DNA of 40,504 nt from a virus (taxonomy: Duplodnaviria; Heunggongvirae; Uroviricota; Caudoviricetes), in IMG/VR virus record IMGVR_UViG_2526164632_000038. One strand, written 5' to 3'. Shown here piece by piece: positions 4,914 to 40,504 of the stretch. The translations under genes were made by a program, and so were the position numbers. The notes beneath the pieces are model-generated. The model ran no database searches and was not told the origin of the DNA. It saw nothing but the letters and a program-made list of their open reading frames with translations. The stretch's first letter is position 1. Each line of letters starts with the position of its first letter.

Positions 4914-5665
4914 CAGTTTACCCTATCGGTATTGCTTCCACCGCGCTGAACACCGCCATGAGTGTGCGTATCATCGATTGGCTTGCCGTTAGCCTTCACG
5001 CTCCCCAAAAACTCAACAGCACCAGTGATTTTTGAAGCCACACCAGAAACCACAGACCCCACCATGCCCCCCATCCAGGTTAACAGGCCATGAATGGTTA
5101 CTTTCTCAGAAAAATCAGCCAGAGGGGCAACCACATCAAGACCACCCGGAGCGACAATTTTAATTTTCCTGGTATCAGGATTAAGCTCAAAATAGGTGCT
5201 GCCGTCATCACTACGCAACTGTGTGGCACTGGTATTAATACCGCTAATCCTCCTTGCCTGCGACTGGGGACCGACAATACAAAACGCATCCGATAAATCA
5301 TGCATTCTGTCATCGACCGTCTCCTGTATCCCGCCACTCTGCCACCAGAAATCGATGCAGCGATCGGCAAAAATCACCAGGCATTCATCGCCGGCTTTTA
5401 CCGGGAAAGTTAACGTGCAGCCGCCGCCGCGCGGAAATACCACCGGCACATCCACCAGCAGCGGGTAATTTTTGGTTACGCGGTTGCCGTCGTTGTCGGT
5501 TTCAACCGAACGAATAGCAGGCTGCACAACCGCCGTCACCGCGTCAGGATCGAATGACTGAACGATGCCAGGCAAAGCGACGCGGATCTGGTTCTTTGTG
5601 GTTTCCCGCTCGGATTTGAATGTTTCGGCAAGGTCGCCGCTACGAGTCTGGTCTGATATGGCCAT
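4913..5665 (-). CDS. Baseplate assembly/spike protein (gpV-like)
   Basis: ATG at 5665 preceded by AGGAG (caggagtttatcaaATG); 250 aa; position in baseplate cluster. Confidence 0.45.
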   Translation of the reverse strand: MAISDQTRSGDLAETFKSERETTKNQIRVALPGIVQSFDPDAVTAVVQPAIRSVETDNDGNRVTKNYPLLVDVPVVFPRGGGCTLTFPVKAGDECLVIFADRCIDFWWQSGGIQETVDDRMHDLSDAFCIVGPQSQARRISGINTSATQLRSDDGSTYFELNPDTRKIKIVAPGGLDVVAPLADFSEKVTIHGLLTWMGGMVGSVVSGVASKITGAVEFLGSVKANGKPIDDTHTHGGVQRGGSNTDRVN

Positions 5666-5682
5666 TTGATAAACTCCTGAAA

Positions 5683-5706
5683 ACAAAAAACCCGCCAAGT
5701 GGCGGG
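5683..5706 (-). terminator. Rho-independent terminator closing the AT-rich cassette
   Basis: Minus strand reads CCCGCCACTTGGCGGG followed by TTTTTTGTT. Confidence 0.55.
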
Positions 5707-5900
5707 TCTACAGGAACAACTCTAAGTTTATTTTTCTGTTTAAAATTGTCCAACTCAGGTTCTTTAACGCTTTCTGTCATGTAATCCAATCCACCAAAAG
5801 GTACTTCAAGCATTATACTGCTTTCATAATCAGCCATGGATTGCTCTGCTTGCGTTGGCTTGCTTTGCTGTGAGTTGTCATTATTTGATGTTGTCATCAA

Positions 5901-6122
5901 CTATGCCTTATTTATCAAAAGAAAAGTAACCGATAATATGAAAAAACCGAAAGATAACGCAATTCCTTCAAAAAGATAACGAGCGTAAACTGCCTTTTCT
6001 TTATGAAGACTTTCGATCAATTCAACAGCTTTACCATACTGAAACATATGGTATCTAAGCGTTTTAATTTTATCACCGTAAAATAAAAAATCATGCTCTT
6101 CTTTTCGCTTATGAATAGGCAT
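5901..6122 (-). CDS. Small membrane protein (73 aa) in AT-rich cassette
   Basis: ATG at 6122 (MPIHKRKEEHDFLFYGDK...) directly after the upstream stop; C-terminal hydrophobic helix LFEGIALSFGFFILSVTFLLI; AT-rich. Confidence 0.35.
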   Translation of the reverse strand: MPIHKRKEEHDFLFYGDKIKTLRYHMFQYGKAVELIESLHKEKAVYARYLFEGIALSFGFFILSVTFLLINKA

Positions 6123-6136
6123 TTTTGGTATATCTT

Positions 6137-6454
6137 TCAGTCCCCAAGTACGCCATAGGAAAAAAAGCACATAACAATACAAACAAAGCACAGATATGCA
6201 CAAAGTATAGATAATGTTAAAAACCAATTACTCTTTAGCCCACTTTTGAAATCAACAGTCCCAAATACAGCCAGTAGAGCAGAGGTTTCTACAGCTAAAA
6301 TAGCAAGAAGGTAGTTAACTTTGTCCTCAAGACGACGATATGTTGATTTTGCTTCCTCATATCTATCTTTATAATATGACGAAATAAAATCAGCGCCTAT
6401 AGTCTCAATTGCCTTTTGTTCTTCTGTTGTATCTATTGACGAACGCTTGCTCAT
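6137..6454 (-). CDS. Membrane protein (105 aa) in AT-rich cassette
   Basis: MSKRSSIDTTEEQKAIE... with two hydrophobic segments (LLAILAVETSALLAVFGTV; WFLTLSILCAYLCFVCIVMCFF); AT-rich. Confidence 0.45.
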   Translation of the reverse strand: MSKRSSIDTTEEQKAIETIGADFISSYYKDRYEEAKSTYRRLEDKVNYLLAILAVETSALLAVFGTVDFKSGLKSNWFLTLSILCAYLCFVCIVMCFFSYGVLGD

Positions 6455-6461
6455 TTCTCAA

Positions 6462-6809
6462 TCAACCAACAACTTTCTTACACGGGAAAGAGCCAATAAT
6501 TTTCGGAGCATCCATGCTGTTCTGCAACAACTGGACGTTCAGGAAACGCGTTTTAGTGCCAGGTCGATGGATATACTCGAACCCATAATTGTTGCCATCT
6601 TTGGCAGGCATCAGGTCCATTTTGATCTGCATGCCTGTACCGTCTTTACCCAACATTTTTACTTTTTGGGACGTTACTGTTTCGCCATTGATTTTAAATA
6701 ATGAATCAGGGATCGCATCCATACGAAAGTTGCCGCATTGCATCGTTATGGTGTTTGCACTTACACCAACAGACACTAATGCCAGCAATGAAAATATCCA
6801 TCGTTTCAT
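6462..6809 (-). CDS. Small secreted protein with N-terminal signal peptide (115 aa)
   Basis: ATG at 6809 with GAGAGGA upstream; MKRWIFSLLALVSVGVSA-NT signal-like N-terminus, no lipobox Cys. Confidence 0.5.
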   Translation of the reverse strand: MKRWIFSLLALVSVGVSANTITMQCGNFRMDAIPDSLFKINGETVTSQKVKMLGKDGTGMQIKMDLMPAKDGNNYGFEYIHRPGTKTRFLNVQLLQNSMDAPKIIGSFPCKKVVG

Positions 6810-29972: not shown

Positions 29973-31274
29973 ATGCCAGACGTTCATGCACAACTTTCTC
30001 CATCATCAGCGCATCGATGGATGCGCTGCCCAGGAAGTCTGGCGCTGGAGGCCACACAACCGGATAAAGAAACAACTTTTGCAATCGAGGGCACTGCAGC
30101 GCACGCGCTTGCTGAAAAAGTTCTACGAAACAGGCAAAGCCACCCGGAACACTACGCCGGATGCAATGTTTCTATGTTTCTCGGCTCATACCCCCTTCGC
30201 GAAAATCCTGATGATACATCTGGCCCACAGGTGGATGATGAAATGGTCGAAGCCGTTGGCCGGTATGTTGATACGGTCTGGACTCTTGCACAGAATAATG
30301 AACTATTGGTTGAACAACGTGTTGATTTCTCACATATAACGGGGGTGGAAGAATCTTTCGGAACTGCCGACGGCATAATCATCGCTGGTAACGAATTACA
30401 AATCCACGACCTGAAATATGGCAAAGGCGTCCGCATTGATGCAGAACAAAATGAGCAACTACAACTGTATGCTCTGGGTGCGCTCGAACAATTCAGCATG
30501 CTGTATGACTTTGAGACTGTAAGATTATTTATTCACCAGCCAAGGCTCAACCACGTTTCAGAATGGTCGTTAACCGTACAGGAACTTCAGTCTTTCGGTG
30601 AACGGGCACAGGAGGCCGCAACCAGTGCGATCCTTGTTCTCAATATTGCTGAATGCGAAGGCATTGAGACACTACCGCTGGAAAACTTCATACCTGGAGA
30701 AAAACAGTGCCGCTTCTGTAAAGCAAAAGCTATTTGCACTGCCCAGAAAATGCAGCATTTACAAACAGCGGCCAGCGATTTTGAAGATCTGACAAAGCCT
30801 GTCAGCGAAATAATCACCAATGCCAGCGCACGTGTACCTCTGTTAACCATTGAGCAGCTTGCGGAGATCTATAGCCAGGCCGACTTTATTGAATCCTGGC
30901 TAAAGGCAGTACGGGACCGGGTTCACAATGAACTCAATGCCGGACATCCGGTACCGGGGTTTAAACTGGTAACAGGAAAACAAGGTAACCGGGCCTGGAG
31001 TGATGAAGAGGCAGCTCGCGCACTTCTGAAGGACCAGTTCAGGTACAAAACTGAAGAAGTATTCGACTTTAAACTTATTAGTCCCACAAAAGCCGAAAAA
31101 CTTATCAAAAAGGCCAGTCCACGCCGTTGGTCAAAAGTCGAGGCACTGATAACACGAGCTGATGGTAAACCAACCGTCATTCCCGAGTCAGACCCACGCC
31201 CCGCACTCAATATCAACCCTGTAAATGATTTCGACGACGTATCCGACGATACGCTAACCGCAGACCTCATCTGA
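29973..31274 (+). CDS. PD-(D/E)xK nuclease with Cys cluster (Cas4-like; resembles DUF2800-type phage proteins)
   Basis: N-terminal RWMRCPGS Cys plus C-terminal [10 protein letters not shown] cluster; nuclease-like motif ...IHDLKYGKG. Confidence 0.6.
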
Positions 31275-31289
31275 TTTAAGGAAATACCC

Positions 31290-31838
31290 ATGAAACTGAA
31301 GCTGAACAATGTTCGTCTGGCCTTCCCGTCTCTGTTTGAAGCTAAAACTGTAAACGGCGAAGGCGATCCGCGTTTCTCCGCAGTATTTTTAATGTCTCCC
31401 AAACACCCACAACTGGAAGAAATCCGTAAAGCTATGAAGCAGGTAGCGAAGGAAAAATGGGGAGAGAAGTGGGAGCCCATTTATAACCAGCTGGAGAAAA
31501 AACTCAATCTGTGCCTGCATGATGGTGATGAAAAAGCAGAGTATGAAGGCTTCCCCGGTAATTTCTTCCTGAATGCTGCTAACAAAGCGCGCCCAGCTGT
31601 TCTTGATCGCGATCGTTCGCCACTTATTCAGGCTGACGGACGTCCCTATGCAGGGTGCTATGTAAACGCCGTTATCGATATCTGGGCACAGGACAATAAT
31701 TTCGGTAAACGCATTAATGCCTCACTCGGCGGAGTCCAGTTCCTGCGAGACGGCGATGCATTCGCTGGCGGCGGAGTGGCAAGCGCTGACGATTTCGACG
31801 ATATCAGCGAAGGTGCTGATGCTGAAGCACTAATTTAA
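31290..31838 (+). CDS. Phage single-strand DNA-binding-like protein (resembles DUF2815-type)
   Basis: 182-aa ORF with acidic C-terminal tail ADDFDDISEGADAEALI; sits between the nuclease and polymerase genes. Confidence 0.5.
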   Translation: MKLKLNNVRLAFPSLFEAKTVNGEGDPRFSAVFLMSPKHPQLEEIRKAMKQVAKEKWGEKWEPIYNQLEKKLNLCLHDGDEKAEYEGFPGNFFLNAANKARPAVLDRDRSPLIQADGRPYAGCYVNAVIDIWAQDNNFGKRINASLGGVQFLRDGDAFAGGGVASADDFDDISEGADAEALI

Positions 31839-31853
31839 CCCTACTTCATAGAC

Positions 31854-31872
31854 GCCCGGTTAAACACCGGGC
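31854..31872. terminator. Bidirectional hairpin between convergent genes
   Basis: GCCCGGT-TAAAC-ACCGGGC perfect stem between the SSB-like stop and the reverse-oriented membrane gene stop; no clear U-tract. Confidence 0.3.
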
Positions 31873-31890
31873 TACTGATTAGGCGTATAA

Positions 31891-32520
31891 TCACTCAGGA
31901 ATCTTAATCTTTCTCAATTCTTTATTTAGTTCACAGATCTTTTTCTTAGACGGGAAAGTATCATACATCCAAAAACCAACAGTCTCTAAAACTATTATCA
32001 TAACCATATACACAAGATAATTTAAAAGGCCTTCATTTTGCCCTATGGAAATAATGCAGATAATAGAAAAAAGGGTAAACAGCACAAAACACAGAAAGGA
32101 AAACAGACGACTAATAATAAATAAAAAACCTGAAAAATCAACATTAATAAAAAACACTCCGTTATCTTTCTCTATATAATTCTGAAGCTTAATCAACTGA
32201 TTTATATACTGTCTTTTTTCTAATCTATTGCAAATGTAAATAACATCTCTTCGGTTATAAGATGATTGCAATTTCAGCGCATCACGAATAATTTTATCAT
32301 TTATTCTTTTTTCTATGGCACTCTTATCCTCCTCATCCAGATAACGTTCATACTTAACTAAATATAAAATTAACTTCTTAACATATTTAGGCTCTTTATA
32401 CTTATAATTAAAAATGATCTTTCTTATCCAGACTCCCATAACAATCAAACATGAAAAAATATATCCAGCTATTTTCTCCAGATGCTCTGTATGGTCAATC
32501 AAGTATTGGATCATATGCAT
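31891..32520 (-). CDS. AT-rich reverse-oriented membrane protein (209 aa), unknown function
   Basis: Opposite strand to the surrounding operon; very AT-rich; N-terminal TM (IAGYIFSCLIVMGVWI), Lys-rich central domain, C-terminal TM pair. Confidence 0.55.
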   Translation of the reverse strand: MHMIQYLIDHTEHLEKIAGYIFSCLIVMGVWIRKIIFNYKYKEPKYVKKLILYLVKYERYLDEEDKSAIEKRINDKIIRDALKLQSSYNRRDVIYICNRLEKRQYINQLIKLQNYIEKDNGVFFINVDFSGFLFIISRLFSFLCFVLFTLFSIICIISIGQNEGLLNYLVYMVMIIVLETVGFWMYDTFPSKKKICELNKELRKIKIPE

Positions 32521-32566
32521 AATTAATCTTTTAATCAGTTAATAGAATAAAAACCAAGGTAAACAC

Positions 32567-34630
32567 ATGTCCAATATACTATGGGGCGACCTGGAAACCT
32601 ATTGCGAAATCCCTATTACGAACGGTACCCATGCGTATGCCGAAGGCGTTGAAGTGATGCTTTTCGCATGGGCTATCAACGACGGGCCAGTAAACGTGTG
32701 GGATATCACTGCCGGTGGTGGTATTCCACACGGCTTATACGAAGCAATCGCAGACCCTGAAACCCTGCTTTATTTCCATAACTCTCACTTCGACCGCACC
32801 GTTCTGCGTTATGCAATGCCGCGCCTGGCACCGCCAGTCGAACGTTGGCGCGACACAATGGTGCAGGCGCTGGCGCACGGTCTCCCGGGGTCTCTGGGGG
32901 AACTCTGCGAAGTACTAGGCGTCCCGCAAGACAAAGCGAAGGACAAAGAAGGTAAAGCGCTGATCCAGCTGTTCTGTAAGCCACGCCCGAAAAACAGCAA
33001 ACTGCGCCGGGCCACCAGCAAAACCCACCCGGAAGAATGGCGGCGCTTTGTTGCTTACGCCGGACTGGATATCGAGGCAATGCGCGAAGTCTATAAACGT
33101 CTGCCGAAGTGGAATTATCAGGGGACAGAACTGGCGCTCTGGCATCGTGATCAGCAGATCAATGACCGGGGCGTCTGCATGGACGTGGAACTCGCACGCG
33201 CTGCGATCGACGCGGTAGACCAGGAACAAAAGCGCCTGGCAAAGCGTACACAGGAAATGACTGATGGCGAAGTGCAGGCAGCCACACAACGAGACGCGTT
33301 GATTAAGCACATTGTTGAATCCTACGGTGTGGAGCTACCAGACATGCAACGCAGTACTCTGGAACGTCGTATTGCCGACCCCGATTTACCATCTGCCGTG
33401 AAAGAACTGCTGGCTATCCGCCTGCAGGCCAGTACTACCAGCACCAGTAAATACAAGGCACTGATGAAAGGCGTAAGCCACGACGGGCGCTTACGCGGTA
33501 CGCTACAGTTCTGCGGGGCGTCACGTACCGGTCGTTGGGCCGGACGGCTATTCCAGCCCCAGAACCTTCCCCGCCCTTCACTAAAACAGGAACAAATAGA
33601 CGAAGGCATCGAAGCACTGAAAGCCGGATGTGCAGACCTGCTGTTTGACAATATCATGGAACTAACCAGTTCAGCGTTACGTGGCTGCATTATCGCGCCA
33701 ACAGGCAAAAAGCTGGTGGTAAGTGACTTGTCGAACATTGAAGGCCGTATGCTGGCATGGCTGGCGGGAGAAGAATGGAAACTGAATGCATTCAGAGAGT
33801 ACGACGCCGGAACGGGTCCGGACTTATATAAACTGGCGTATGCAAAAGCTTTCGATATTGCACCAGATGATGTTGATAAACACATGCGTCAGATCGGTAA
33901 AGTCATGGAACTCGGTCTGGGTTATGGTGGTGGTGTGTCGGCCTTCATCACTTTTGCACTGGTTTACGATCTCGATCTCGACGAGCTGGCGAACGCCGCA
34001 CTACCAAACATTCCCCGCGATGTTATCCGCGAGGCGAAAAGCTGGTACGACGAATCGGTTAAACGCAAGTCAACCTACGGGCTTTCTGAACGGGTATTTA
34101 TCGCCTGCGACTCACTTAAACGTCTCTGGCGCCGGGCGCATCCCGCGACCTGTGATTTCTGGTACGAACTGGAGCGCACCGTCCGCACTGCAATCGCCAC
34201 ACCGCAAAAAACATTGTATTGCGGTTATCTTAAAATCCGCCGCGATGGCGCGTGGCTGCGCATACAGCTACCATCCGGACGCGCTGTATGCTACCCGTCT
34301 CCGGTTATCGAAAAAGGGAATATCACCTACATGGGGGTTAACTCTTATTCGCGTAAATGGCAACGACTCAAAACCTACGGCGGAAAGCTGGTGGAGAACA
34401 TCACCCAGGCGGCCGCCCGCGACATTCTGGCCGGAAACATGCCGCTTATCGAAGATGCCGGTTACAGCATTGTGCTGACGGTACACAACGAGGTGATCAC
34501 CGAAGCACCTGACACAGAAGATTTCAACGATAAAGCGCTTTCCGCGCTTCTCTCCACTGACCCCGAATGGGCGCCCGATATCCCACTGAACGCTGGCGGT
34601 TTTGAGGCGTACCACTACAAAAAAGATTGA
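32567..34630 (+). CDS. Family A DNA polymerase with 3'-5' exonuclease domain
   Basis: Exo motifs DLETY, HNSHFD, YAGLD; pol motif A DLSNIEGR; motif [15 protein letters not shown]; motif C position reads VHNEV. Confidence 0.8.
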
Positions 34631-34694: not shown

Positions 34695-35456
34695 ATGCAG
34701 GAACTAACTGAAATGCCGATCACCTATCCATACCCGAGAGAAACTTTTCCTGACTTTTTGAGGGAGTGTGGGTTCACCAATTTTTCCCACGAACAGCGTG
34801 AGACTTGTGACTGCTATCGTTTAACGAATGGCGTAATTGTTAACCTTTACACCACCCGGACCATTCAGTTTCAAGGTAACCCTCAAGAACGTCCCAATGT
34901 TGAAACTGCAATAATGACCCATTTAGGAACGCCGCCCACGGCAACACCACTAGCCGTAGAACAGCCATCTGAGCTCCCCAAAAAGATATTCATTGTTCAC
35001 GGCCATGACCATACTGCAAAGGAGCAACTTGAGCTAATCCTTCATAAACTTGGATTACCAGACCATTTCATTTTGCAGAATACGGGAGGGACTGGACTCA
35101 CCATTATTGAAGAGCTTGAACGTGAAATTGGGCAAGGACAAACTGCTACCCGTTTCGGGATTGTTCTTTTGACACCTGATGATATGGGATACTCAAAGCG
35201 CGCCGGTGAAGCAGAAATCCAACCCCGCGCAAGACAGAACGTTGTACTCGAGATGGGTATGCTTCTTTCGTCCTTAGGGCGCAGCAATGTAGCAATCCTT
35301 CAGAAACAGCACCTAGAACAGCCTTCTGATGCTAACGGGATTTTGTATCTGAATTTCAACGACCATGTACGTGAAACAGTTCCTCGTCTAGTGCAACGGT
35401 TACAAAATTCTGGTTTCGAATTTACACAAGCTCAAATAGCTAACGCTTCCTCGTAA
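34695..35456 (+). CDS. TIR-like domain protein (candidate defence effector)
   Basis: C-terminal region KIFIVHGHDHTAKEQLELILHKLGLPDHFILQNTGGTGLTIIEELE...LLTPDDMGY...PRARQNVVLEMGMLL matches my recollection of the TIR-like nucleotide-binding family (FIVHGHD start, LTPDD, conserved Glu in NVxxExG); N-terminal 95 aa unassigned. Confidence 0.55.
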   Translation: MQELTEMPITYPYPRETFPDFLRECGFTNFSHEQRETCDCYRLTNGVIVNLYTTRTIQFQGNPQERPNVETAIMTHLGTPPTATPLAVEQPSELPKKIFIVHGHDHTAKEQLELILHKLGLPDHFILQNTGGTGLTIIEELEREIGQGQTATRFGIVLLTPDDMGYSKRAGEAEIQPRARQNVVLEMGMLLSSLGRSNVAILQKQHLEQPSDANGILYLNFNDHVRETVPRLVQRLQNSGFEFTQAQIANASS

Positions 35457-35519: not shown

Positions 35520-35654
35520 ATGTCATTTAAATACCGGGACAGTCCGCTTTATTACCGGACTGTGCGGGAGGCTTTGCACCTTGAACAGTCCGGCGGGTAC
35601 GACCGGGCGATGCAGGTCTGGGCCAAAGCGAACGTCGGTTTGATTTTTGTCTGA
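35520..35654 (+). CDS. Small ORF (44 aa), possible small regulator
   Basis: MSFKYRDSPLYYRTVREALHLEQSGGYDRAMQVWAKANVGLIFV; no strong SD; below the ORF-track cutoff. Confidence 0.2.
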   Translation: MSFKYRDSPLYYRTVREALHLEQSGGYDRAMQVWAKANVGLIFV

Positions 35655-35690
35655 TGCAGAACATGCGCGAAAAGCGTAAGGAGGTGGACG

Positions 35691-35885
35691 ATGTCTAATA
35701 TCGATAATAAGGGTTGGGGGTTCCCCGCTCTGTCAAAAAAAGCACATTTCTTTAATTCGGGGGAAGCCATATCACTATGCGGAAAATGGATGTTCATAGG
35801 TATCAGGATTGATGAATGGCATGACCATCCTGAGAACTGCGCTATCTGCATGAAGAAACGCAAAAAGCAGGAAGGCGAAAGCTAA
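35691..35885 (+). CDS. Small Cys-containing protein (64 aa)
   Basis: Strong SD AAGGAGGTG 5 nt upstream of ATG; stop overlaps the next start. Confidence 0.45.
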   Translation: MSNIDNKGWGFPALSKKAHFFNSGEAISLCGKWMFIGIRIDEWHDHPENCAICMKKRKKQEGES

Positions 35886-36172
35886 TGGCCTATGAACGTG
35901 AAAACCTAATCGAAAAGCACCTCGTCGCTGAAGTAAAAAAGGCTGGCGGGGTTGCCTTTAAGTTCGTATCCCCCGGTCGCCGCTCGGTACCAGATCGCAT
36001 TGTTCTGCTACCCGGCGGTCGTATCATTTTCGTTGAATGTAAATCCCCCGGCAAGCCACCACGGCCTGACCAGTTGCGCGAACACGGACGGTTGCGCGCG
36101 CTGGGCTTTACCGTAGTGGTGCTGGATAGCAAAAATCTGGAGGCCATTATTTTAAGCCGCAATAAAGGATAA
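35885..36172 (+). CDS. VRR-NUC-type PD-(D/E)xK nuclease
   Basis: 95-aa protein with VPDRIV ... FVECK motif. Confidence 0.55.
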   Translation: MAYERENLIEKHLVAEVKKAGGVAFKFVSPGRRSVPDRIVLLPGGRIIFVECKSPGKPPRPDQLREHGRLRALGFTVVVLDSKNLEAIILSRNKG

Positions 36173-36184
36173 AAGACTTATGCT

Positions 36185-36766
36185 TTAATCCGTATTTTTA
36201 ACACGTATTTCGAAACACCCTTTTAATTTAGCTATTTCCTTTTTAGAGGACATGATTGTGAATCTCATCCCTTTTAAATCATTAACAAATTCAAATTTTG
36301 CGCTATTTGACTCACAATCACCAACAACAAAACCACTACCAAATGAATTGAGCAACACTTTAGTATTACTACCATCTACCATATAATATTCGTTATTTTT
36401 AAATGCAGTAACCTTCCCGAATGTATAGCTCAATATCAACAACGTTATCACCCCTAAAGGAAAAGCTGACTTTAGGATTTTTAAATCGATATAATAAAAT
36501 ACGTTCTTATACTCTGCAAGCCTCCCAAATTTTCTAATGCTCTCCATATGATGTTCGTGTCTCTTACTATGGATTGGCATGGACACCACATTGTGATAAT
36601 TCAACAAAAGCATAGCAAATAATAAAATATCCTGAACACTCATCACAGAAGTTTTGGAGAAATAACCAAAAGGCCAATGAAATCCTATTATACAAATATT
36701 AGCCATTAGCATAACAACTATAAATACAATAAATGGAACATAATATTTCCCTTTCAAATCAAACAT
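36185..36766 (-). CDS. AT-rich reverse-oriented membrane protein (about 193 aa), unknown function
   Basis: Three hydrophobic segments in the N-terminal half, soluble C-terminal 80 aa; ATG at 36766 overlaps the upstream gene stop by 8 nt. Confidence 0.5.
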   Translation of the reverse strand: MFDLKGKYYVPFIVFIVVMLMANICIIGFHWPFGYFSKTSVMSVQDILLFAMLLLNYHNVVSMPIHSKRHEHHMESIRKFGRLAEYKNVFYYIDLKILKSAFPLGVITLLILSYTFGKVTAFKNNEYYMVDGSNTKVLLNSFGSGFVVGDCESNSAKFEFVNDLKGMRFTIMSSKKEIAKLKGCFEIRVKNTD

Positions 36767-36980
36767 CAACGCCGCATATAAGGCGCCGAGAAATAAAAAC
36801 TAAAAACAAAAGCCACACAGCCGAATACAATAGCGTATTTAAGTCTATTTTAATAAAAAGGTCTGGATAGCCATAATACGATGCAACACCTTTCTGAAAA
36901 GAATATGCCATCGCATAAGCTAACGCTGAAAACATAGTTAATAAAGAAACTTGCTTTGTAAATATTTTCGCCAGGGGCAT
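36759..36980 (-). CDS. AT-rich small membrane protein (73 aa), first gene of the reverse-oriented pair
   Basis: Two hydrophobic helices (VSLLTMFSALAYAMAYSF; LLYSAVWLLFLVFI). Confidence 0.45.
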   Translation of the reverse strand: MPLAKIFTKQVSLLTMFSALAYAMAYSFQKGVASYYGYPDLFIKIDLNTLLYSAVWLLFLVFISRRLICGVDV

Positions 36981-37043
36981 ACCCGCCTCCGTTAGTTATA
37001 TATATAGAGAGAGAAGTGACCATATTCTACCATAGGTGTATTA

Positions 37044-38438
37044 ATGAATAGCATATTCCACCCCAGAGTTTATCAAAACCTCATAATCAATCACCAAACT
37101 AACATTCTGCGCGGCAACATCTGGGCGGGTATGGGAATGGGTAAAACCGTGGCAACGCTCACTGCGCTGGAAGATCTCTTTATGGCAGGGGCAGAAACAT
37201 GCCCCGCACTGGTCCTCGCGCCGCTGCGCGTGGCTGCCAGCACATGGCCGGATGAAGCACTGAAGTGGGGACATTTGCGCAATATCGAGGTGCAGCCAAT
37301 TATTGGTAATGCCAAAGCGCGCTCTATGGCGCTGACGAACAGCAACGCAAGCGTGTTCACCATCAACTACGATAACCTTGTCTGGCTGATTGAAGAATTG
37401 GGAGAACGATGGCCGTTCGGTACTGTCATTCCAGATGAAAGCACCCGGCTAAAATCCTTCCGGCTGCGCGGTGGTGGTAAGCGCGCGGCGGCGCTGGGCA
37501 AAGTGGCGCATAAGTATGTCCGGCGCTGGATAAATCTCACCGGTACGCCAGCACCGAACGGCCTGGTAGATTTGTGGGGACAATCGTGGTTTGTGGACCA
37601 GGGGCAACGTCTCGGGCGCACTTACGGCGCGTTTACCTCACGCTGGTTCAACTCGATACAGTTTCCGGGGCAGAGCTGGACCAAACTGGAGCCTTTTGCT
37701 CACTCACAGGGTGAAATACAGCGAGCGTTAGCCGATGTAACCCTCTCGCTGGATGCGGCCGACTGGTTCGATATCAAAGACCCCATCCATAACGTAATCC
37801 GCGTGGATATGCCACCGAAGGCCCGTCAGCAGTATCGTGAAATGGAAAAGGAAATGTTCCTCGAGCTGAATGGCGAAGGCATCGAAGCACCGAACGCCGC
37901 GGCAAAGACACTGAAGTGTCTGCAAATCGCCAGCGGCGCAGTATACACAGATGACACCGGAAGTTGGTCAGAACTGCATGACACCAAACTACAGGCGCTG
38001 GACAGCATACTGACCGAAGCAGCTGGCGCACCTGTGCTGGTTGCTTATCACTGGAAACACGATCTTGAACGCTTGCTTAAAGCATTCCCTCGCGGTCGTC
38101 ACCTCGACCAGGATCCACAGACACTGCGCGACTGGAATTCCGGAAAGATTCCTGTTCTCTTTGCACACCCAGCCAGCGCGGGCCACGGCCTGAACATGCA
38201 GGACGGCGGAAATATACTGGTATTTTTCTCACACTGGTGGGACCTGGAGCAATATCAGCAAATTATTGAACGTATCGGCCCCACCAGGCAGATACAGGCC
38301 GGACACAATCGTCCGGTATTTATTCACCACATTATTGCTGCCGACACTATGGATGAAATGGTGATGGAGCGGCGCAACTCAAAACGAACAGTGCAGGACA
38401 TCCTGCTCGATGCCATGAAAAAGAGAGGTATAGCATGA
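37044..38438 (+). CDS. SNF2/DEAD-like superfamily 2 helicase
   Basis: Walker A GMGMGKT, motif II IPDEST, C-terminal helicase domain. Confidence 0.7.
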   Translation: MNSIFHPRVYQNLIINHQTNILRGNIWAGMGMGKTVATLTALEDLFMAGAETCPALVLAPLRVAASTWPDEALKWGHLRNIEVQPIIGNAKARSMALTNSNASVFTINYDNLVWLIEELGERWPFGTVIPDESTRLKSFRLRGGGKRAAALGKVAHKYVRRWINLTGTPAPNGLVDLWGQSWFVDQGQRLGRTYGAFTSRWFNSIQFPGQSWTKLEPFAHSQGEIQRALADVTLSLDAADWFDIKDPIHNVIRVDMPPKARQQYREMEKEMFLELNGEGIEAPNAAAKTLKCLQIASGAVYTDDTGSWSELHDTKLQALDSILTEAAGAPVLVAYHWKHDLERLLKAFPRGRHLDQDPQTLRDWNSGKIPVLFAHPASAGHGLNMQDGGNILVFFSHWWDLEQYQQIIERIGPTRQIQAGHNRPVFIHHIIAADTMDEMVMERRNSKRTVQDILLDAMKKRGIA

Positions 38439-38635
38439 GCGAGAAACCCGACGATTTACTCACCCCGGATGAAGTATGCCAAAAGTTAGGTATTACACAG
38501 AAAACGCTATGTGAGTGGAATATTAAGCATCGTCATCGGGCTATCCTGGCACCAATTCGTTTCAGTGCAAAAGTAGTTCGTTATGAGCGCCGAAATATCG
38601 ACGCTTTTATTCAAAAATGTCGCAGCCAGTATTAA
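38435..38635 (+). CDS. AlpA/excisionase-like small HTH protein
   Basis: 66 aa, LTPDEVCQKLGITQKTLCEW HTH; start overlaps helicase stop (ATGA); 3' end overlaps the convergent integrase stop. Confidence 0.55.
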   Translation: MSEKPDDLLTPDEVCQKLGITQKTLCEWNIKHRHRAILAPIRFSAKVVRYERRNIDAFIQKCRSQY

Positions 38636-40035
38636 CCTCGCCGCCGTAGCAATGCCACCTGCGCAAGTATGCTCCGCTCGTGAGCCTCGAAAGCTTCGCG
38701 CTTCAACGCAATCTCTTCCTGTAAAATCTCATCAGAAAAGTCGTAATGTTCTGCCATCGGGTCATCTGACTTGCTGGAGTGGTGAAGGCAAAGGAGGCTG
38801 ATTTCCCTTCGGTCTGAGCGGGAATAGCCTCTTTCCTTCATCAAGGCAATAACATTGCTCTTAAGGAATTTACGGCACATCGTATTAAATGCACCGTCTT
38901 TCCCTTTAACAGTCCCATCATGTTTTATTCCTTTTACAGCCCCGTCCGGGCTGTATGTTTTCACCAGCTTATCCAGTGATCGTTTTGAAAATGGCTGCAT
39001 TGGATCACGTGGCTGCAAAAATACATAATCCCTGTTGCACTCAGGAACTGAATCACGCCAGGCTTTCTGCTCGTCGATAATCCGCCGGATCTCAGGGGTT
39101 ATCGGCAGGCGGAAAGCCTTTTGTGTTTTCATAGCCCCTCGCATGCCGATAACCCCTTCCGGATAAACAATTTCACCAGCCTCCTCGTGAACGTAGTCCC
39201 AGCGCAGGTTATGGACATTAATCGGACGAACACCAGTGATGATCATGAAGCGAACAGCATTCTTCTGGTGTACAGAGGTGCAGGCAGCAACATTGAGCCA
39301 GAGTCGGGCGATTGATTCAATATCGGTAAAAAGCCGTGTGGGGGTAGGTTTCTGTACGCGGGAGGAAACATAATCATCTGGCAGACTGGCGGCAACATTG
39401 CGGCCGTTGCAAAGAGTAGGTGCGCAGAACTTCCAGAACCGACGGAGCTCGGCAAACAACTCCAGGGCGTTATTGTTCGAGCGAGTAGCGATCCACTCGT
39501 CCAGCACTTCCACCAGCCGATTGTATGTTACGTCGCTGAACACCTCGCGCTCGCCGAACGTTGCTTTAATCCGGTCGATACGCACCCCGTAGGTTGTGAA
39601 ACTGTCCGGGCTCAGCTTCTGCCGGGCGACTTTGGCTTTGAGGTCATCCCGGTACATTTCCAGCGCTGCATGTACGGACTCTGCCCGCAGGCCACCGTCA
39701 GCCATACCTAGCGCTTTTTCGCGCGCCAGCTGGATAGCGAGCTCCGGCCACTCGCCGAGCTTTTTACCTTTGAGGCCCATCTTTTTTGGAAACTCGGCGT
39801 AAAATGTAACCTTACCGGCTTTGCTGAAATCGATACGGAGATAGTTCTCTTTTTCGTATTTGGAACGGCGAGCCACGCCGGAAGCAGCGAGGATGATTTT
39901 GGCGGCAGCAACACAGATTTTCATGTGTGCGCTAGTATAGGGGGGTTTACAGGCGTCCCATTTTTCAGAAGCGGCTAAAACATCGTCATTATTGGGGCTA
40001 TCCGGATTATGTGTTACAGTGCGCGGCATTCTCAA
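38632..40035 (-). CDS. Tyrosine-type site-specific integrase
   Basis: About 465-aa ORF at the prophage edge, adjacent to an AlpA-like gene and the host gene; catalytic residues not individually verified. Confidence 0.7.
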   Translation of the reverse strand: MRMPRTVTHNPDSPNNDDVLAASEKWDACKPPYTSAHMKICVAAAKIILAASGVARRSKYEKENYLRIDFSKAGKVTFYAEFPKKMGLKGKKLGEWPELAIQLAREKALGMADGGLRAESVHAALEMYRDDLKAKVARQKLSPDSFTTYGVRIDRIKATFGEREVFSDVTYNRLVEVLDEWIATRSNNNALELFAELRRFWKFCAPTLCNGRNVAASLPDDYVSSRVQKPTPTRLFTDIESIARLWLNVAACTSVHQKNAVRFMIITGVRPINVHNLRWDYVHEEAGEIVYPEGVIGMRGAMKTQKAFRLPITPEIRRIIDEQKAWRDSVPECNRDYVFLQPRDPMQPFSKRSLDKLVKTYSPDGAVKGIKHDGTVKGKDGAFNTMCRKFLKSNVIALMKERGYSRSDRREISLLCLHHSSKSDDPMAEHYDFSDEILQEEIALKREAFEAHERSILAQVALLRRRG

Positions 40036-40234
40036 TCCTTATCTGCGTAGGCGCAGAAAACAAGCTCACACATACAAGTCTTTTCTACGGGACAAAATGC
40101 AATGTGTTGCGGTTTAGTGTTGCTGGACTGAGTTTATCAAGGTTAAATACACTGGATCAACATACAGTAAGTTAATGACAGTAAAGCATACAAACTCGAT
40201 ACAACTTACTGATTTTAAAATGATTTAACGGTAA

Positions 40235-40504
<270 letters not shown>

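What the first reader, a model, noticed from the sequence alone, without database searches (positions are those of the whole stretch)
31891..32520. AT-rich, reverse-oriented membrane-protein gene between the SSB-like and polymerase genes
A single 209-aa ORF on the opposite strand interrupts an otherwise co-directional operon. Its composition is much more AT-rich than its neighbours, which suggests separate acquisition. The protein has an N-terminal TM helix, a Lys-rich soluble domain and a C-terminal TM pair. Placement and composition fit a superinfection-exclusion or abortive-infection moron; I recognise no family.
Basis: seen in the sequence. Interest (0 to 1): 0.65.

Follow-up and report, generated by a model that had tools for sequence, protein, structure and literature searches.

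The report
Swappable prophage membrane-protein accessory gene
This is a real, horizontally swapped accessory gene of an E. coli prophage that encodes a three-pass inner-membrane protein from a small, unnamed family carried by mobile elements of enterobacteria; it is probably a phage-exclusion gene, but its function has not been tested.

Summary
31891-32520(-) is a 209-aa ORF with GC 0.289, the lowest-GC stretch of the window (z = -4.2). It lies between the Enc34-type ssDNA-binding gene and the family-A DNA polymerase gene of an E. coli prophage.

It is not part of the replication machinery. Of 159 E. coli genomes that share the flanks, 67 carry it. The others carry unrelated cargo in the same slot: Nmad5, BRO-N, HNH or other reverse-strand ORFs. 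Homology breaks at the SSB stop codon and the polymerase ATG.

The protein belongs to a small Enterobacterales family with no Pfam, NCBIfam or PADLOC model; its only match is phrog_10579, of unknown function. Members are always solitary and almost all AT-rich. They sit in accessory slots of different elements: the P2 orf30 slot, lambdoid nin regions, a conjugative element, a genomic island and a Xenorhabdus chromosomal site. A 199-aa occupant of the same slot is an 18%-identical homologue (hhalign 96.6%).

Orthologue dN/dS is 0.07-0.15. Predicted topology is N-out/C-in, and the cytoplasmic parts are the most conserved.

The moron reading is strongly supported. An exclusion or abortive-infection function is plausible but unproven. 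Interest is moderate.

The parts
31891..32520 (-). CDS of the 209-aa membrane protein (identical to a sequence in the 90% cluster represented by P0001; the protein at this position in CP066032 is annotated WP_000551017.1 'hypothetical protein'). Predicted layout: periplasmic N-tail 1-16, TM1 17-37, cytoplasmic helical domain about 38-128, TM2 129-160, short loop QNEG, TM3 165-187 with Glu179, and a cytoplasmic Lys-rich tail helix 188-209 that holds the invariant N199 and L202.
31839..32566 (.). Exchangeable cassette between the SSB stop codon and the polymerase start codon. All sequence here differs between related prophages, while the flanks stay 97-99% identical.
31854..31872 (.). GC-rich 7-bp hairpin (GCCCGGT / ACCGGGC) lying 16 nt after the SSB stop codon and 19 nt after the stop codon of the reverse ORF. 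It is shared with the BRO-N cassette (L005), where a T-run follows it as in an intrinsic terminator. Here the T-run is absent.
   Evidence: z = -3.9
32544..32573 (-). Weak sigma-70-like site (TGGACA, 18 nt, TATTCT; 9 of 12 matches). Its -35 hexamer overlaps the conserved polymerase start codon. It is only a candidate promoter for the reverse ORF: the number of such sites in the region is no higher than in shuffled sequence.
   Evidence: 5 found, 4.1 expected
31290..31838 (+). Left flank of the slot: the Enc34/DUF2815 ssDNA-binding protein gene.
32567..34630 (+). Right flank of the slot: the family-A DNA polymerase gene.

Best explanation
**What it is.** The ORF is the cargo of a cassette-exchange hot spot in the replication module of an E. 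coli prophage of the BPP-1/APSE-like replication type. The cassette runs from the SSB stop codon to the polymerase ATG. It is most likely swapped by homologous recombination in the conserved flanking genes, because no repeats or mobile-element ends bound it.

**What the gene encodes.** The product is a three-pass inner-membrane protein:
- N-terminus outside the cell.
- A cytoplasmic helical domain of about 90 aa between TM1 and TM2.
- A short periplasmic loop.
- A cytoplasmic Lys-rich amphipathic tail.

It belongs to a small, uncharacterised family confined to Enterobacterales. Its members travel as solitary, AT-rich genes between the accessory slots of unrelated mobile elements.

**Most likely function (inferred, not shown).** I think it is a single-gene exclusion or abortive-infection determinant that benefits the lysogen. 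The conserved cytoplasmic domain and C-terminal helix would sense or gate. The poorly conserved TM hairpin, which carries a buried Glu in most members, would oligomerise to perturb the membrane or to block DNA entry.

**Shown:** the gene is real, it is under purifying selection, it is accessory, it is swapped as a cassette, and its family and contexts are as described.

**Inferred:** the topology, expression in the lysogen, and the defence role with its mechanism.
For: **Accessory and swapped**
- 67 of 159 E. coli genomes with the flanks carry it.
- The alternative cargo in the same slot is Nmad5 plus an 89-aa TM ORF, a 199-aa ORF, Nmad5 plus a 229-aa ORF, BRO-N, or HNH.
- Homology breaks exactly at the SSB stop codon and the polymerase ATG.
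- No flanking repeats and no Rfam match.
- Distant phages with the same module (BPP-1, YeP5, APSE-1, Acinetobacter 4316) also hold varying small genes between SSB and pol.

**A real protein family**
- HMMER against 1.84 billion representatives gave 10 hits with full-length matches (43-25% identity, E from 6e-48 to 6e-6).
- The profile search added Xenorhabdus proteins and a 199-aa subfamily.
- The 199-aa occupant of the same slot is a homologue: hhalign probability 96.6%, E 6.6e-10, 190 aligned columns, 18% identity.
- dN/dS is 0.07 for a Xenorhabdus pair and 0.10-0.15 in the 199-aa subfamily.

**Moves alone between mobile elements** (no partner gene recurred in the 13 homologue neighbourhoods examined)
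- The P2 S-V slot, i.e. the orf30 slot, in Rahnella. This slot is a known site of horizontal acquisition (PMC3091744).
- Beside antiterminator Q in a lambdoid prophage, next to a type II MTase, an HNH REase and a dGTPase (PADLOC 5.5e-144).
- Beside RecT, reversed relative to its neighbours.
- Beside DUF1367, near an integrase.
- Near TraG_N on a conjugative element.
- On a CbtA/CbeA genomic island.
- In the SSB-pol slot of a Klebsiella aerogenes prophage.
- Family genes have GC 0.28-0.32 (one at 0.40) against flanks of 0.37-0.58.

**Architecture**
- Hydropathy and the positive-inside charge pattern.
- AlphaFold2 on the family alignment: pLDDT 77.8.
- Conservation is highest in the C-tail (1.63), the N-tail (0.98) and the cytoplasmic domain (0.97), and lowest in the TM segments (0.23-0.47).

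**Nearby defence cargo.** A TIR gene matching PADLOC PDC-S35 (6.8e-109) fills the next variable slot.
Against: - There is no phenotype or expression data of any kind.
- No member matches a PADLOC v2.0 defence model, apart from one weak hit of P0010 to the candidate PDC-S47 (E 4e-4, 17.9 bits).
- No Pfam-A family matches at E <= 0.1 other than scattered chance hits.
- Promoter and terminator signals are weak. Promoter-like sites are no more frequent than in shuffled sequence, and the hairpin lacks a T-tract.
- In several Xenorhabdus species the homologue sits at one syntenic chromosomal site upstream of thrS. That would also fit an ordinary membrane function.
- The same slot also holds cargo that is more likely counter-defence or regulatory (Nmad5, BRO-N). 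Occupying the slot therefore does not by itself imply defence.
- Among the E. coli alleles the counts are 7 synonymous and 11 non-synonymous changes, a crude ratio of about 0.37 on few sites.
Confidence: 0.45

Rival explanations
1. It is a classical superinfection-exclusion protein. It sits in the inner membrane of the lysogen and blocks genome entry of incoming phages, in the functional style of T4 Imm, P22 SieA or HK97 gp15, without killing the cell. This is a sub-case of the defence reading and differs from the abortive-infection sub-case only in mechanism.
For: The protein is an inner-membrane protein encoded on the reverse strand of an early lytic operon, which is typical of genes expressed in the lysogen. 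It is a solitary gene. Highly diverged alleles (18% identity) occupy one slot between flanks that are about 98% identical, as expected if alleles differ in target specificity.
Against: Almost nothing is exposed to the periplasm, only 16 N-terminal residues and a 4-residue loop. The most conserved parts are cytoplasmic. No match was found to any Pfam family, a library that to my knowledge includes SieB, RexB and Imm models.
Confidence: 0.2
2. It is an accessory membrane protein with a role other than defence. Candidates are lysogenic conversion or modulation of host envelope physiology, regulation of lysis timing (its topology resembles a class I holin or antiholin with a cytoplasmic insert), or an immunity protein against a membrane-acting toxin.
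For: The chromosomal copy is syntenic in several Xenorhabdus species and under strong purifying selection (dN/dS 0.07). The topology is three TM segments, N-out and C-in, with a charged C-tail. One homologue lies near a Tlde1-domain gene. No defence model matches.
Against: In none of the 13 homologue neighbourhoods examined is it adjacent to an endolysin or spanin. No toxin partner recurs. It occupies slots already known, or shown here, to hold horizontally acquired accessory or defence cargo (PMC3091744).
Confidence: 0.2
3. It is a component of the phage replication machinery, for example a membrane anchor for the replisome, placed between the SSB and polymerase genes for that reason.
For: Only its position between two replication genes.
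Against: It is absent from 92 of the 159 E. coli genomes that match the flanks, many of which carry other cargo between nearly identical SSB and pol genes. Homologues lie in tail modules, nin regions, conjugative elements and chromosomes. It is on the opposite strand and has a foreign composition.
Confidence: 0.03
4. It is a spurious ORF: an AT-rich non-coding spacer that happens to be open.
For: AT-rich sequence with weak expression signals. It is annotated only as hypothetical.
Against: Full-length homologues at 25-43% identity share motifs and architecture. dN/dS is 0.07-0.15 between orthologues. A confident alignment-based fold was obtained (pLDDT 77.8). The exact sequence is seen on 945 contigs.
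Confidence: 0.02

Closest known systems
Prophage morons and accessory hot spots, e.g. the P2 orf30, Z/fun and tin-old loci and the P2/P4 defence hot spots (PMC3091744; PMC9122126)
   Same: The gene is AT-rich. It is present in some closely related prophages and absent from others. It sits at a fixed position bounded by conserved core genes and is replaced by unrelated cargo. One homologue (P0005) sits in the P2 S-V (orf30) slot itself.
   Different: The hot spot here lies inside a replication operon, between the SSB and polymerase genes, of a different phage lineage. I found no description of this slot as a hot spot in the literature I could search. The cargo family has no assigned function.
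Single-protein membrane Sie/Abi determinants of prophages (T4 Imm, P22 SieA/SieB, lambda RexB, HK97 gp15, lactococcal AbiZ)
   Same: It is a small inner-membrane protein encoded by a temperate phage, and its orientation fits expression in the lysogen. It is solitary.
   Different: There is no sequence or fold similarity to any of them. This protein has a conserved cytoplasmic domain of about 90 aa and a conserved C-terminal motif (I..IN.EL.K) that those proteins, to my knowledge, lack. No phenotype is known.
ExbB/TolQ/ZorA stator subunits
   Same: The layout is strikingly similar: TM1 with N-out, a cytoplasmic helical domain of about 90 aa, TM2, a short loop, TM3 carrying a buried Glu, then a cytoplasmic tail. 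ZorA and ExbB appear among the non-significant Foldseek hits.
   Different: hhalign probability against E. coli ExbB is 0.2%. There is no Pfam MotA_ExbB match. Foldseek gave E 2.6-4.2 and TM <= 0.31. No ExbD/TolR/ZorB-like partner gene is present in any context. The resemblance is an analogy of topology only.
phrog_10579 (PHROGs v4, unknown function)
   Same: The ORF matches the whole profile: E 2.9e-108, residues 28-209 against profile positions 1-182 of 182.
   Different: The PHROG carries no function. It starts at Met28 and so misses the conserved N-terminal 27 residues, including TM1.

Membership tests
Moron / accessory cassette of a prophage (Hendrix-type definition) | Present in some closely related phages and absent from others at the same position | tested here: met
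   67 of 159 E. coli genomes with the flanks carry it. The others hold Nmad5, BRO-N, HNH or other ORFs.
Moron / accessory cassette of a prophage (Hendrix-type definition) | Nucleotide composition distinct from the surrounding genome | tested here: met
   GC 0.289 against 0.50 for the window, z = -4.2, the lowest in the window.
Moron / accessory cassette of a prophage (Hendrix-type definition) | Own promoter and terminator | tested here: inconclusive
   One weak promoter-like site overlaps the pol start codon, and the count of such sites is no higher than in shuffles. The hairpin after the stop codon has z = -3.9 but no T-tract.
Moron / accessory cassette of a prophage (Hendrix-type definition) | Expressed from the repressed prophage | not testable with these tools
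   Needs RNA-seq or 5'-RACE of a lysogen.
Known anti-phage defence systems (PADLOC-DB v2.0) | Significant match to a defence-protein HMM | tested here: not met
   No match for the ORF. Among 23 family members the only match is P0010 to the candidate PDC-S47, at E 4e-4 and 17.9 bits.
Known anti-phage defence systems (guilt by association) | Family members enriched next to known defence genes | tested here: inconclusive
   L027 has an MTase, an HNH REase and a dGTPase beside the homologue. The window has a TIR PDC-S35 gene 2 kb away. Other neighbourhoods show no defence matches. The sample is too small for a statistic.
Phage replication-module core gene | Conserved in all phages that share the module | tested here: not met
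MotA/ExbB/TolQ proton-channel family (PF01618) | Sequence-profile match, and a partner with a single TM segment bearing Asp | tested here: not met
   No Pfam match. hhalign against ExbB gave 0.2%. No partner gene in any context.
SLATT, Cap15 or PycTM-type two-TM effectors | Profile match and linkage to a nucleotide cyclase or SMODS gene | tested here: not met
   No Pfam SLATT match. No PADLOC PycTM or Cap15 match for the ORF. No cyclase gene nearby.
Holins (class I) | Three TM segments, N-out and C-in, about 100 aa, adjacent to an endolysin, matching a holin Pfam family | tested here: not met
   The topology is compatible. However, the protein is 209 aa with a 90-aa cytoplasmic insert, it is not next to lysis genes here or in the homologue contexts, and no holin family matches.
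phrog_10579 | Full-length profile match | tested here: met
   E 2.9e-108 over profile positions 1-182 of 182.

The most novel reading that the evidence does not exclude
The family is a new single-gene, membrane-embedded anti-phage (or anti-mobile-element) system. Its cytoplasmic sensor domain would gate an oligomeric TM pore. The SSB-polymerase gap of BPP-1/APSE-type temperate phages would be a previously undescribed defence and counter-defence hot spot, in which deeply diverged alleles of this family (209-aa and 199-aa forms, 18% identical) are exchanged between otherwise near-identical prophages.
Probability: 0.35. Interest if true: 0.6.

Novelty: new variant of a known kind. Interest (0 to 1): 0.42.

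Why it matters
Prophage accessory slots have been a productive source of new bacterial immune systems. This work defines one such slot inside a replication operon. It lists the slot's alternative cargo and identifies a compact family of about 200-aa proteins with no annotation. The family has the hallmarks of a portable, self-sufficient function:

- always a solitary gene;
- low GC in every member examined, and 0.28-0.32 in all but one;
- found in the accessory slots of at least four kinds of mobile element;
- under purifying selection.

The gene is present in well-studied pathogens, including ETEC H10407, O55:H7 CB9615 and O103:H2 12009, and in inducible phages of the vB_EcoM-606R2 type. A phenotype test is therefore straightforward.

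If the family is not a defence gene, it remains a widespread prophage membrane protein whose effect on the host envelope is unknown.

Tried and rejected
- **Curated libraries.** The ORF has no match in Pfam or PADLOC, and only two chance-level sub-threshold matches in NCBIfam (17 bits against curated cut-offs of 198 and 375). A scan of all 23 family members gave only scattered chance hits.
- **PDB by sequence profile.** The only hit was bacteriorhodopsin at E 0.92.
- **Single-sequence AlphaFold2.** pLDDT was 53, which is unusable.
- **ExbB/TolQ/ZorA homology.** This was suggested by the topology and by weak Foldseek hits. It was rejected by hhalign (0.2%) after I verified the ExbB sequence against PDB entry 5sv0.
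- **Non-coding RNA or mobile-element ends.** No Rfam match and no bounding repeats.
- **GTDB species representatives.** The single-protein search found no relative. The alignment was too diverse to derive search patterns.
- **Literature.** Searches for WP_000551017, the phage names, PDC-S47 and PDC-S35 found nothing.
- **Link to the neighbouring TIR gene.** Rejected as obligatory. The TIR gene is present with a different cassette (L002) and absent with the 199-aa homologue (L003).
- **Entry exclusion on the conjugative element.** In L022 the homologue lies 2 kb upstream of TraG_N and diverges from it, so it is not in the TraS/Eex position.

Full report
**1. The observation**

The minus-strand ORF 31891..32520 (209 aa, ATG start) exists as described. 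It lies between an Enc34/DUF2815 ssDNA-binding gene at 31290-31838 (Pfam 7.6e-44) and a family-A DNA polymerase gene at 32567-34630. These belong to a plus-strand module that also holds a DUF2800 PD-(D/E)XK nuclease, a VRR-NUC nuclease and an SNF2 helicase, followed by an integrase.

The window is a prophage. The region 31000-33400 is 100% identical, and 35848-40504 is 99.9% identical, to E. coli FDAARGOS_1059 (NZ_CP066032). In that genome the element sits next to yfhL and shoB.

The ORF has GC 0.289, against 0.49-0.54 for its neighbours and 0.50 for the window. It is the lowest-GC 630-nt stretch of the window (z = -4.2).

Hydropathy peaks lie at 17-37, 129-160 and 165-187, and lysine makes up 10% of residues.

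**2. Is it a gene?**

Yes.
- A first word-indexed search found only one full-length 90%-identity cluster, with 456 sequences from Enterobacteriaceae.
- An exhaustive HMMER scan of 1.84 billion representatives found full-length relatives of 209-218 aa at 25-43% identity, with E from 6e-48 to 6e-6.
- Profile searches added a Xenorhabdus group and a 199-aa subfamily from E. coli, Klebsiella aerogenes and Enterobacter.
- All members share one plan:
  - a conserved N-terminal 16 residues (Y6, H10);
  - TM1, followed by a basic linker;
  - a helical domain with the motif YL.KY..YL...DK...K..I..EI;
  - two TM helices separated by 4-6 residues, with a Glu in the second helix in most members;
  - a tail with P190, I195, N199, E201, L202 and K204, of which N199 and L202 are invariant.
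- dN/dS between orthologues is 0.07 for a Xenorhabdus pair and 0.10-0.15 in the 199-aa subfamily.
- Conservation of residues 1-16 supports Met1 as the start. The PHROG profile (phrog_10579, E 2.9e-108) begins at Met28.

**3. Is it part of the replication machinery?**

No.
- Of 159 complete E. coli genomes matching the flanks, 67 carry the ORF, always once and always in this slot.
- The other genomes have flanks 97-99% identical but different cargo:
  - Nmad5 (+) with an 89-aa TM ORF (-);
  - Nmad5 (+) with a 229-aa ORF (-);
  - a 199-aa ORF (-);
  - BRO-N (+);
  - BRO-N with an HNH endonuclease.
- Alignments show homology ending at the SSB stop codon and resuming at the polymerase ATG.
- No repeats bound the cassette and no Rfam family matches. 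Exchange by recombination in the flanking genes is therefore the simplest mechanism (inference).
- In all four cassettes that carry a reverse ORF, that ORF starts 26-61 nt from the polymerase ATG.
- In more distant phages with the same SSB/pol module the gap also holds varying small genes. BPP-1 has bbp41. YeP5 has two ORFs. Acinetobacter phage 4316 has a hypothetical ORF and DUF2303 ORFs. APSE-1 has P49, P48 and a reverse-strand DUF1640 protein, P47.

**4. A diverged homologue in the same slot**

The 199-aa reverse ORF found in 13 E. coli genomes looks unrelated by BLAST (E 0.017 over 45 aa). A family profile that excludes it aligns over 190 columns with 96.6% probability, E 6.6e-10, at 18% identity. 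It has the same architecture.

The same subfamily fills the SSB-pol slot of a Klebsiella aerogenes prophage. Two very old alleles of one family are thus exchanged between prophage backbones that are otherwise about 98% identical.

**5. Where else the family lives**

No partner gene recurs in any context.
- A Rahnella P2-like prophage, between tail genes S and V. This is the orf30 slot, one of three P2 loci known to hold horizontally acquired genes (PMC3091744; see also PMC6823313).
- A lambdoid prophage of an Erwiniaceae/Pantoea strain, immediately upstream of antiterminator Q. It lies next to a type II methyltransferase, an HNH restriction enzyme and a dGTPase defence gene (PADLOC 5.5e-144).
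- Next to RecT, reversed relative to its neighbours.
- Next to a DUF1367 nin-region gene, near an integrase.
- Near TraG_N on a conjugative element.
- On a CbtA/CbeA genomic island of Enterobacter.
- Beside a prophage remnant in Xenorhabdus.
- At a syntenic chromosomal site upstream of thrS-infC in several Xenorhabdus species.

The genes have GC 0.28-0.32 (one at 0.40) whatever the GC of the host element, whose flanks range from 0.37 to 0.58. Every database name is 'hypothetical' or 'putative transmembrane'.

**6. Structure and topology**

AlphaFold2 on the 23-sequence alignment gave pLDDT 77.8 and pTM 0.55. The model has:
- helix 11-37;
- helices across 44-111;
- a beta-hairpin at 116-125;
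- helices 132-160 and 165-188;
- a tail helix at 192-202.

The charge distribution is as follows.

| Segment | K+R | D+E |
|---|---|---|
| N-tail | 1 | 3 |
| Post-TM1 linker | 5 | 1 |
| Loop | 0 | 1 |
| C-tail | 7 | 3 |

This pattern predicts an N-out, C-in topology with the 90-aa domain in the cytoplasm.

Conservation is highest in the C-tail (1.63), the N-tail (0.98) and the cytoplasmic domain (0.97). It is lowest in the TM segments (0.23-0.47).

Fold searches were uninformative. The layout mirrors ExbB/TolQ/ZorA, including a Glu in TM3. However, hhalign against a verified ExbB sequence gave 0.2% probability, and no ExbD-like partner exists. I treat this as analogy only.

**7. Mechanism**

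*Shown.* This is a functional, selected, solitary membrane-protein gene. It behaves as portable cargo of accessory slots in several unrelated mobile elements. Here it sits antisense within an early lytic operon.

*Inferred.* It is made in the lysogen and benefits it by excluding other phages or mobile elements. The conserved surfaces are cytoplasmic, and almost nothing faces the periplasm. I therefore slightly favour a sensor-plus-membrane-effector (abortive-infection-like) mode over a pure DNA-entry block. The evidence does not separate the two.

The tail helix has an a/d hydrophobic pattern (I195, L198, L202, I205) around the invariant N199. This suggests oligomerisation (inference).

*Weak points.*
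- Expression signals are weak.
- No known defence model matches. The one exception is a borderline hit of one homologue to the candidate PDC-S47.
- The same slot also carries non-defence cargo.
- The Xenorhabdus copies look like stable chromosomal genes.

**8. Verdict**

The compositional and positional observation is confirmed. The 'separately acquired moron' interpretation is strongly supported. The 'Sie/Abi' function is a reasonable but untested hypothesis.

The kind of thing, a prophage accessory membrane protein in a hot spot, is familiar. The family and this particular hot spot are, as far as I could find, undescribed. Interest is moderate (0.42). It would rise to about 0.6 if a defence phenotype were shown.

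Noticed in passing
window 34695-35456 (+): A TIR-domain protein (Pfam CAP12-PCTIR_TIR 2.9e-31; PADLOC single-gene candidate PDC-S35 6.8e-109) sits between the polymerase gene and the ANR regulator. Related prophages L003 and L004 lack it and go straight from pol to ANR. This makes it a second variable, probably defence, slot in the same module.
   Followed up: partly
window 36185-36982 (-): A second AT-rich (GC 0.31) reverse-strand membrane ORF lies between the VRR-NUC and SNF2 helicase genes. It is intact (265 aa, WP_001127515.1) in CP066032. In the window, two single-base gaps and one mismatch split it into an N-terminal piece and a 194-aa piece. It matches no Pfam, PADLOC or NCBIfam family, and the 194-aa piece matches no PHROG.
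   Followed up: partly
window 5600-6600: A third low-GC island (0.37) lies among the tail and baseplate genes. It holds small overlapping minus-strand ORFs with TM segments (5901-6227, 6137-6454). The second has a weak PADLOC PycTM hit (E 0.015).
   Followed up: no
window 31854-31872; L005 2355-2375: The hairpin after the SSB gene is shared with the BRO-N cassette, where a T-run follows it as in an intrinsic terminator. In the window the T-run has been replaced by the cassette. The Nmad5 cassettes carry a different GC-rich hairpin at the same place.
   Followed up: partly
window about 35520-35700 (+): RefSeq annotates the ANR-family regulator downstream of the TIR gene as frameshifted in the near-identical CP066032 prophage. 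It is intact in L003 and L004.
   Followed up: no
L027 479-5743: In a lambdoid prophage of an Erwiniaceae strain, a small defence island lies directly upstream of the family homologue and antiterminator Q. It holds a type II cytosine methyltransferase, an HNH restriction enzyme, a dGTPase (PADLOC 5.5e-144) and an unknown 424-aa protein.
   Followed up: partly
L036 3710-4282 (APSE-1 P47): In Hamiltonella phage APSE-1 the same SSB-pol gap holds a reverse-strand 190-aa DUF1640 protein. Reverse-oriented cargo in this slot is therefore not confined to E. coli prophages.
   Followed up: no
L018, L019, L020 (Xenorhabdus), gene at 6001-6639 or 1150-1788: Xenorhabdus species carry a homologue (82% identical between X. 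cabanillasii and X. innexi) at a syntenic chromosomal site between an SLT or cupin gene and thrS-infC-rpmI-rplT. It is not in a recognisable prophage.
   Followed up: partly
L002 3098-3367 (-); L004 3026-3715 (-): Other reverse-strand cargo of the same slot includes an 89-aa two-TM protein and a 229-aa soluble protein. Neither matches any Pfam or PADLOC family. Both accompany an Nmad5 nucleotide-modification gene.
   Followed up: partly
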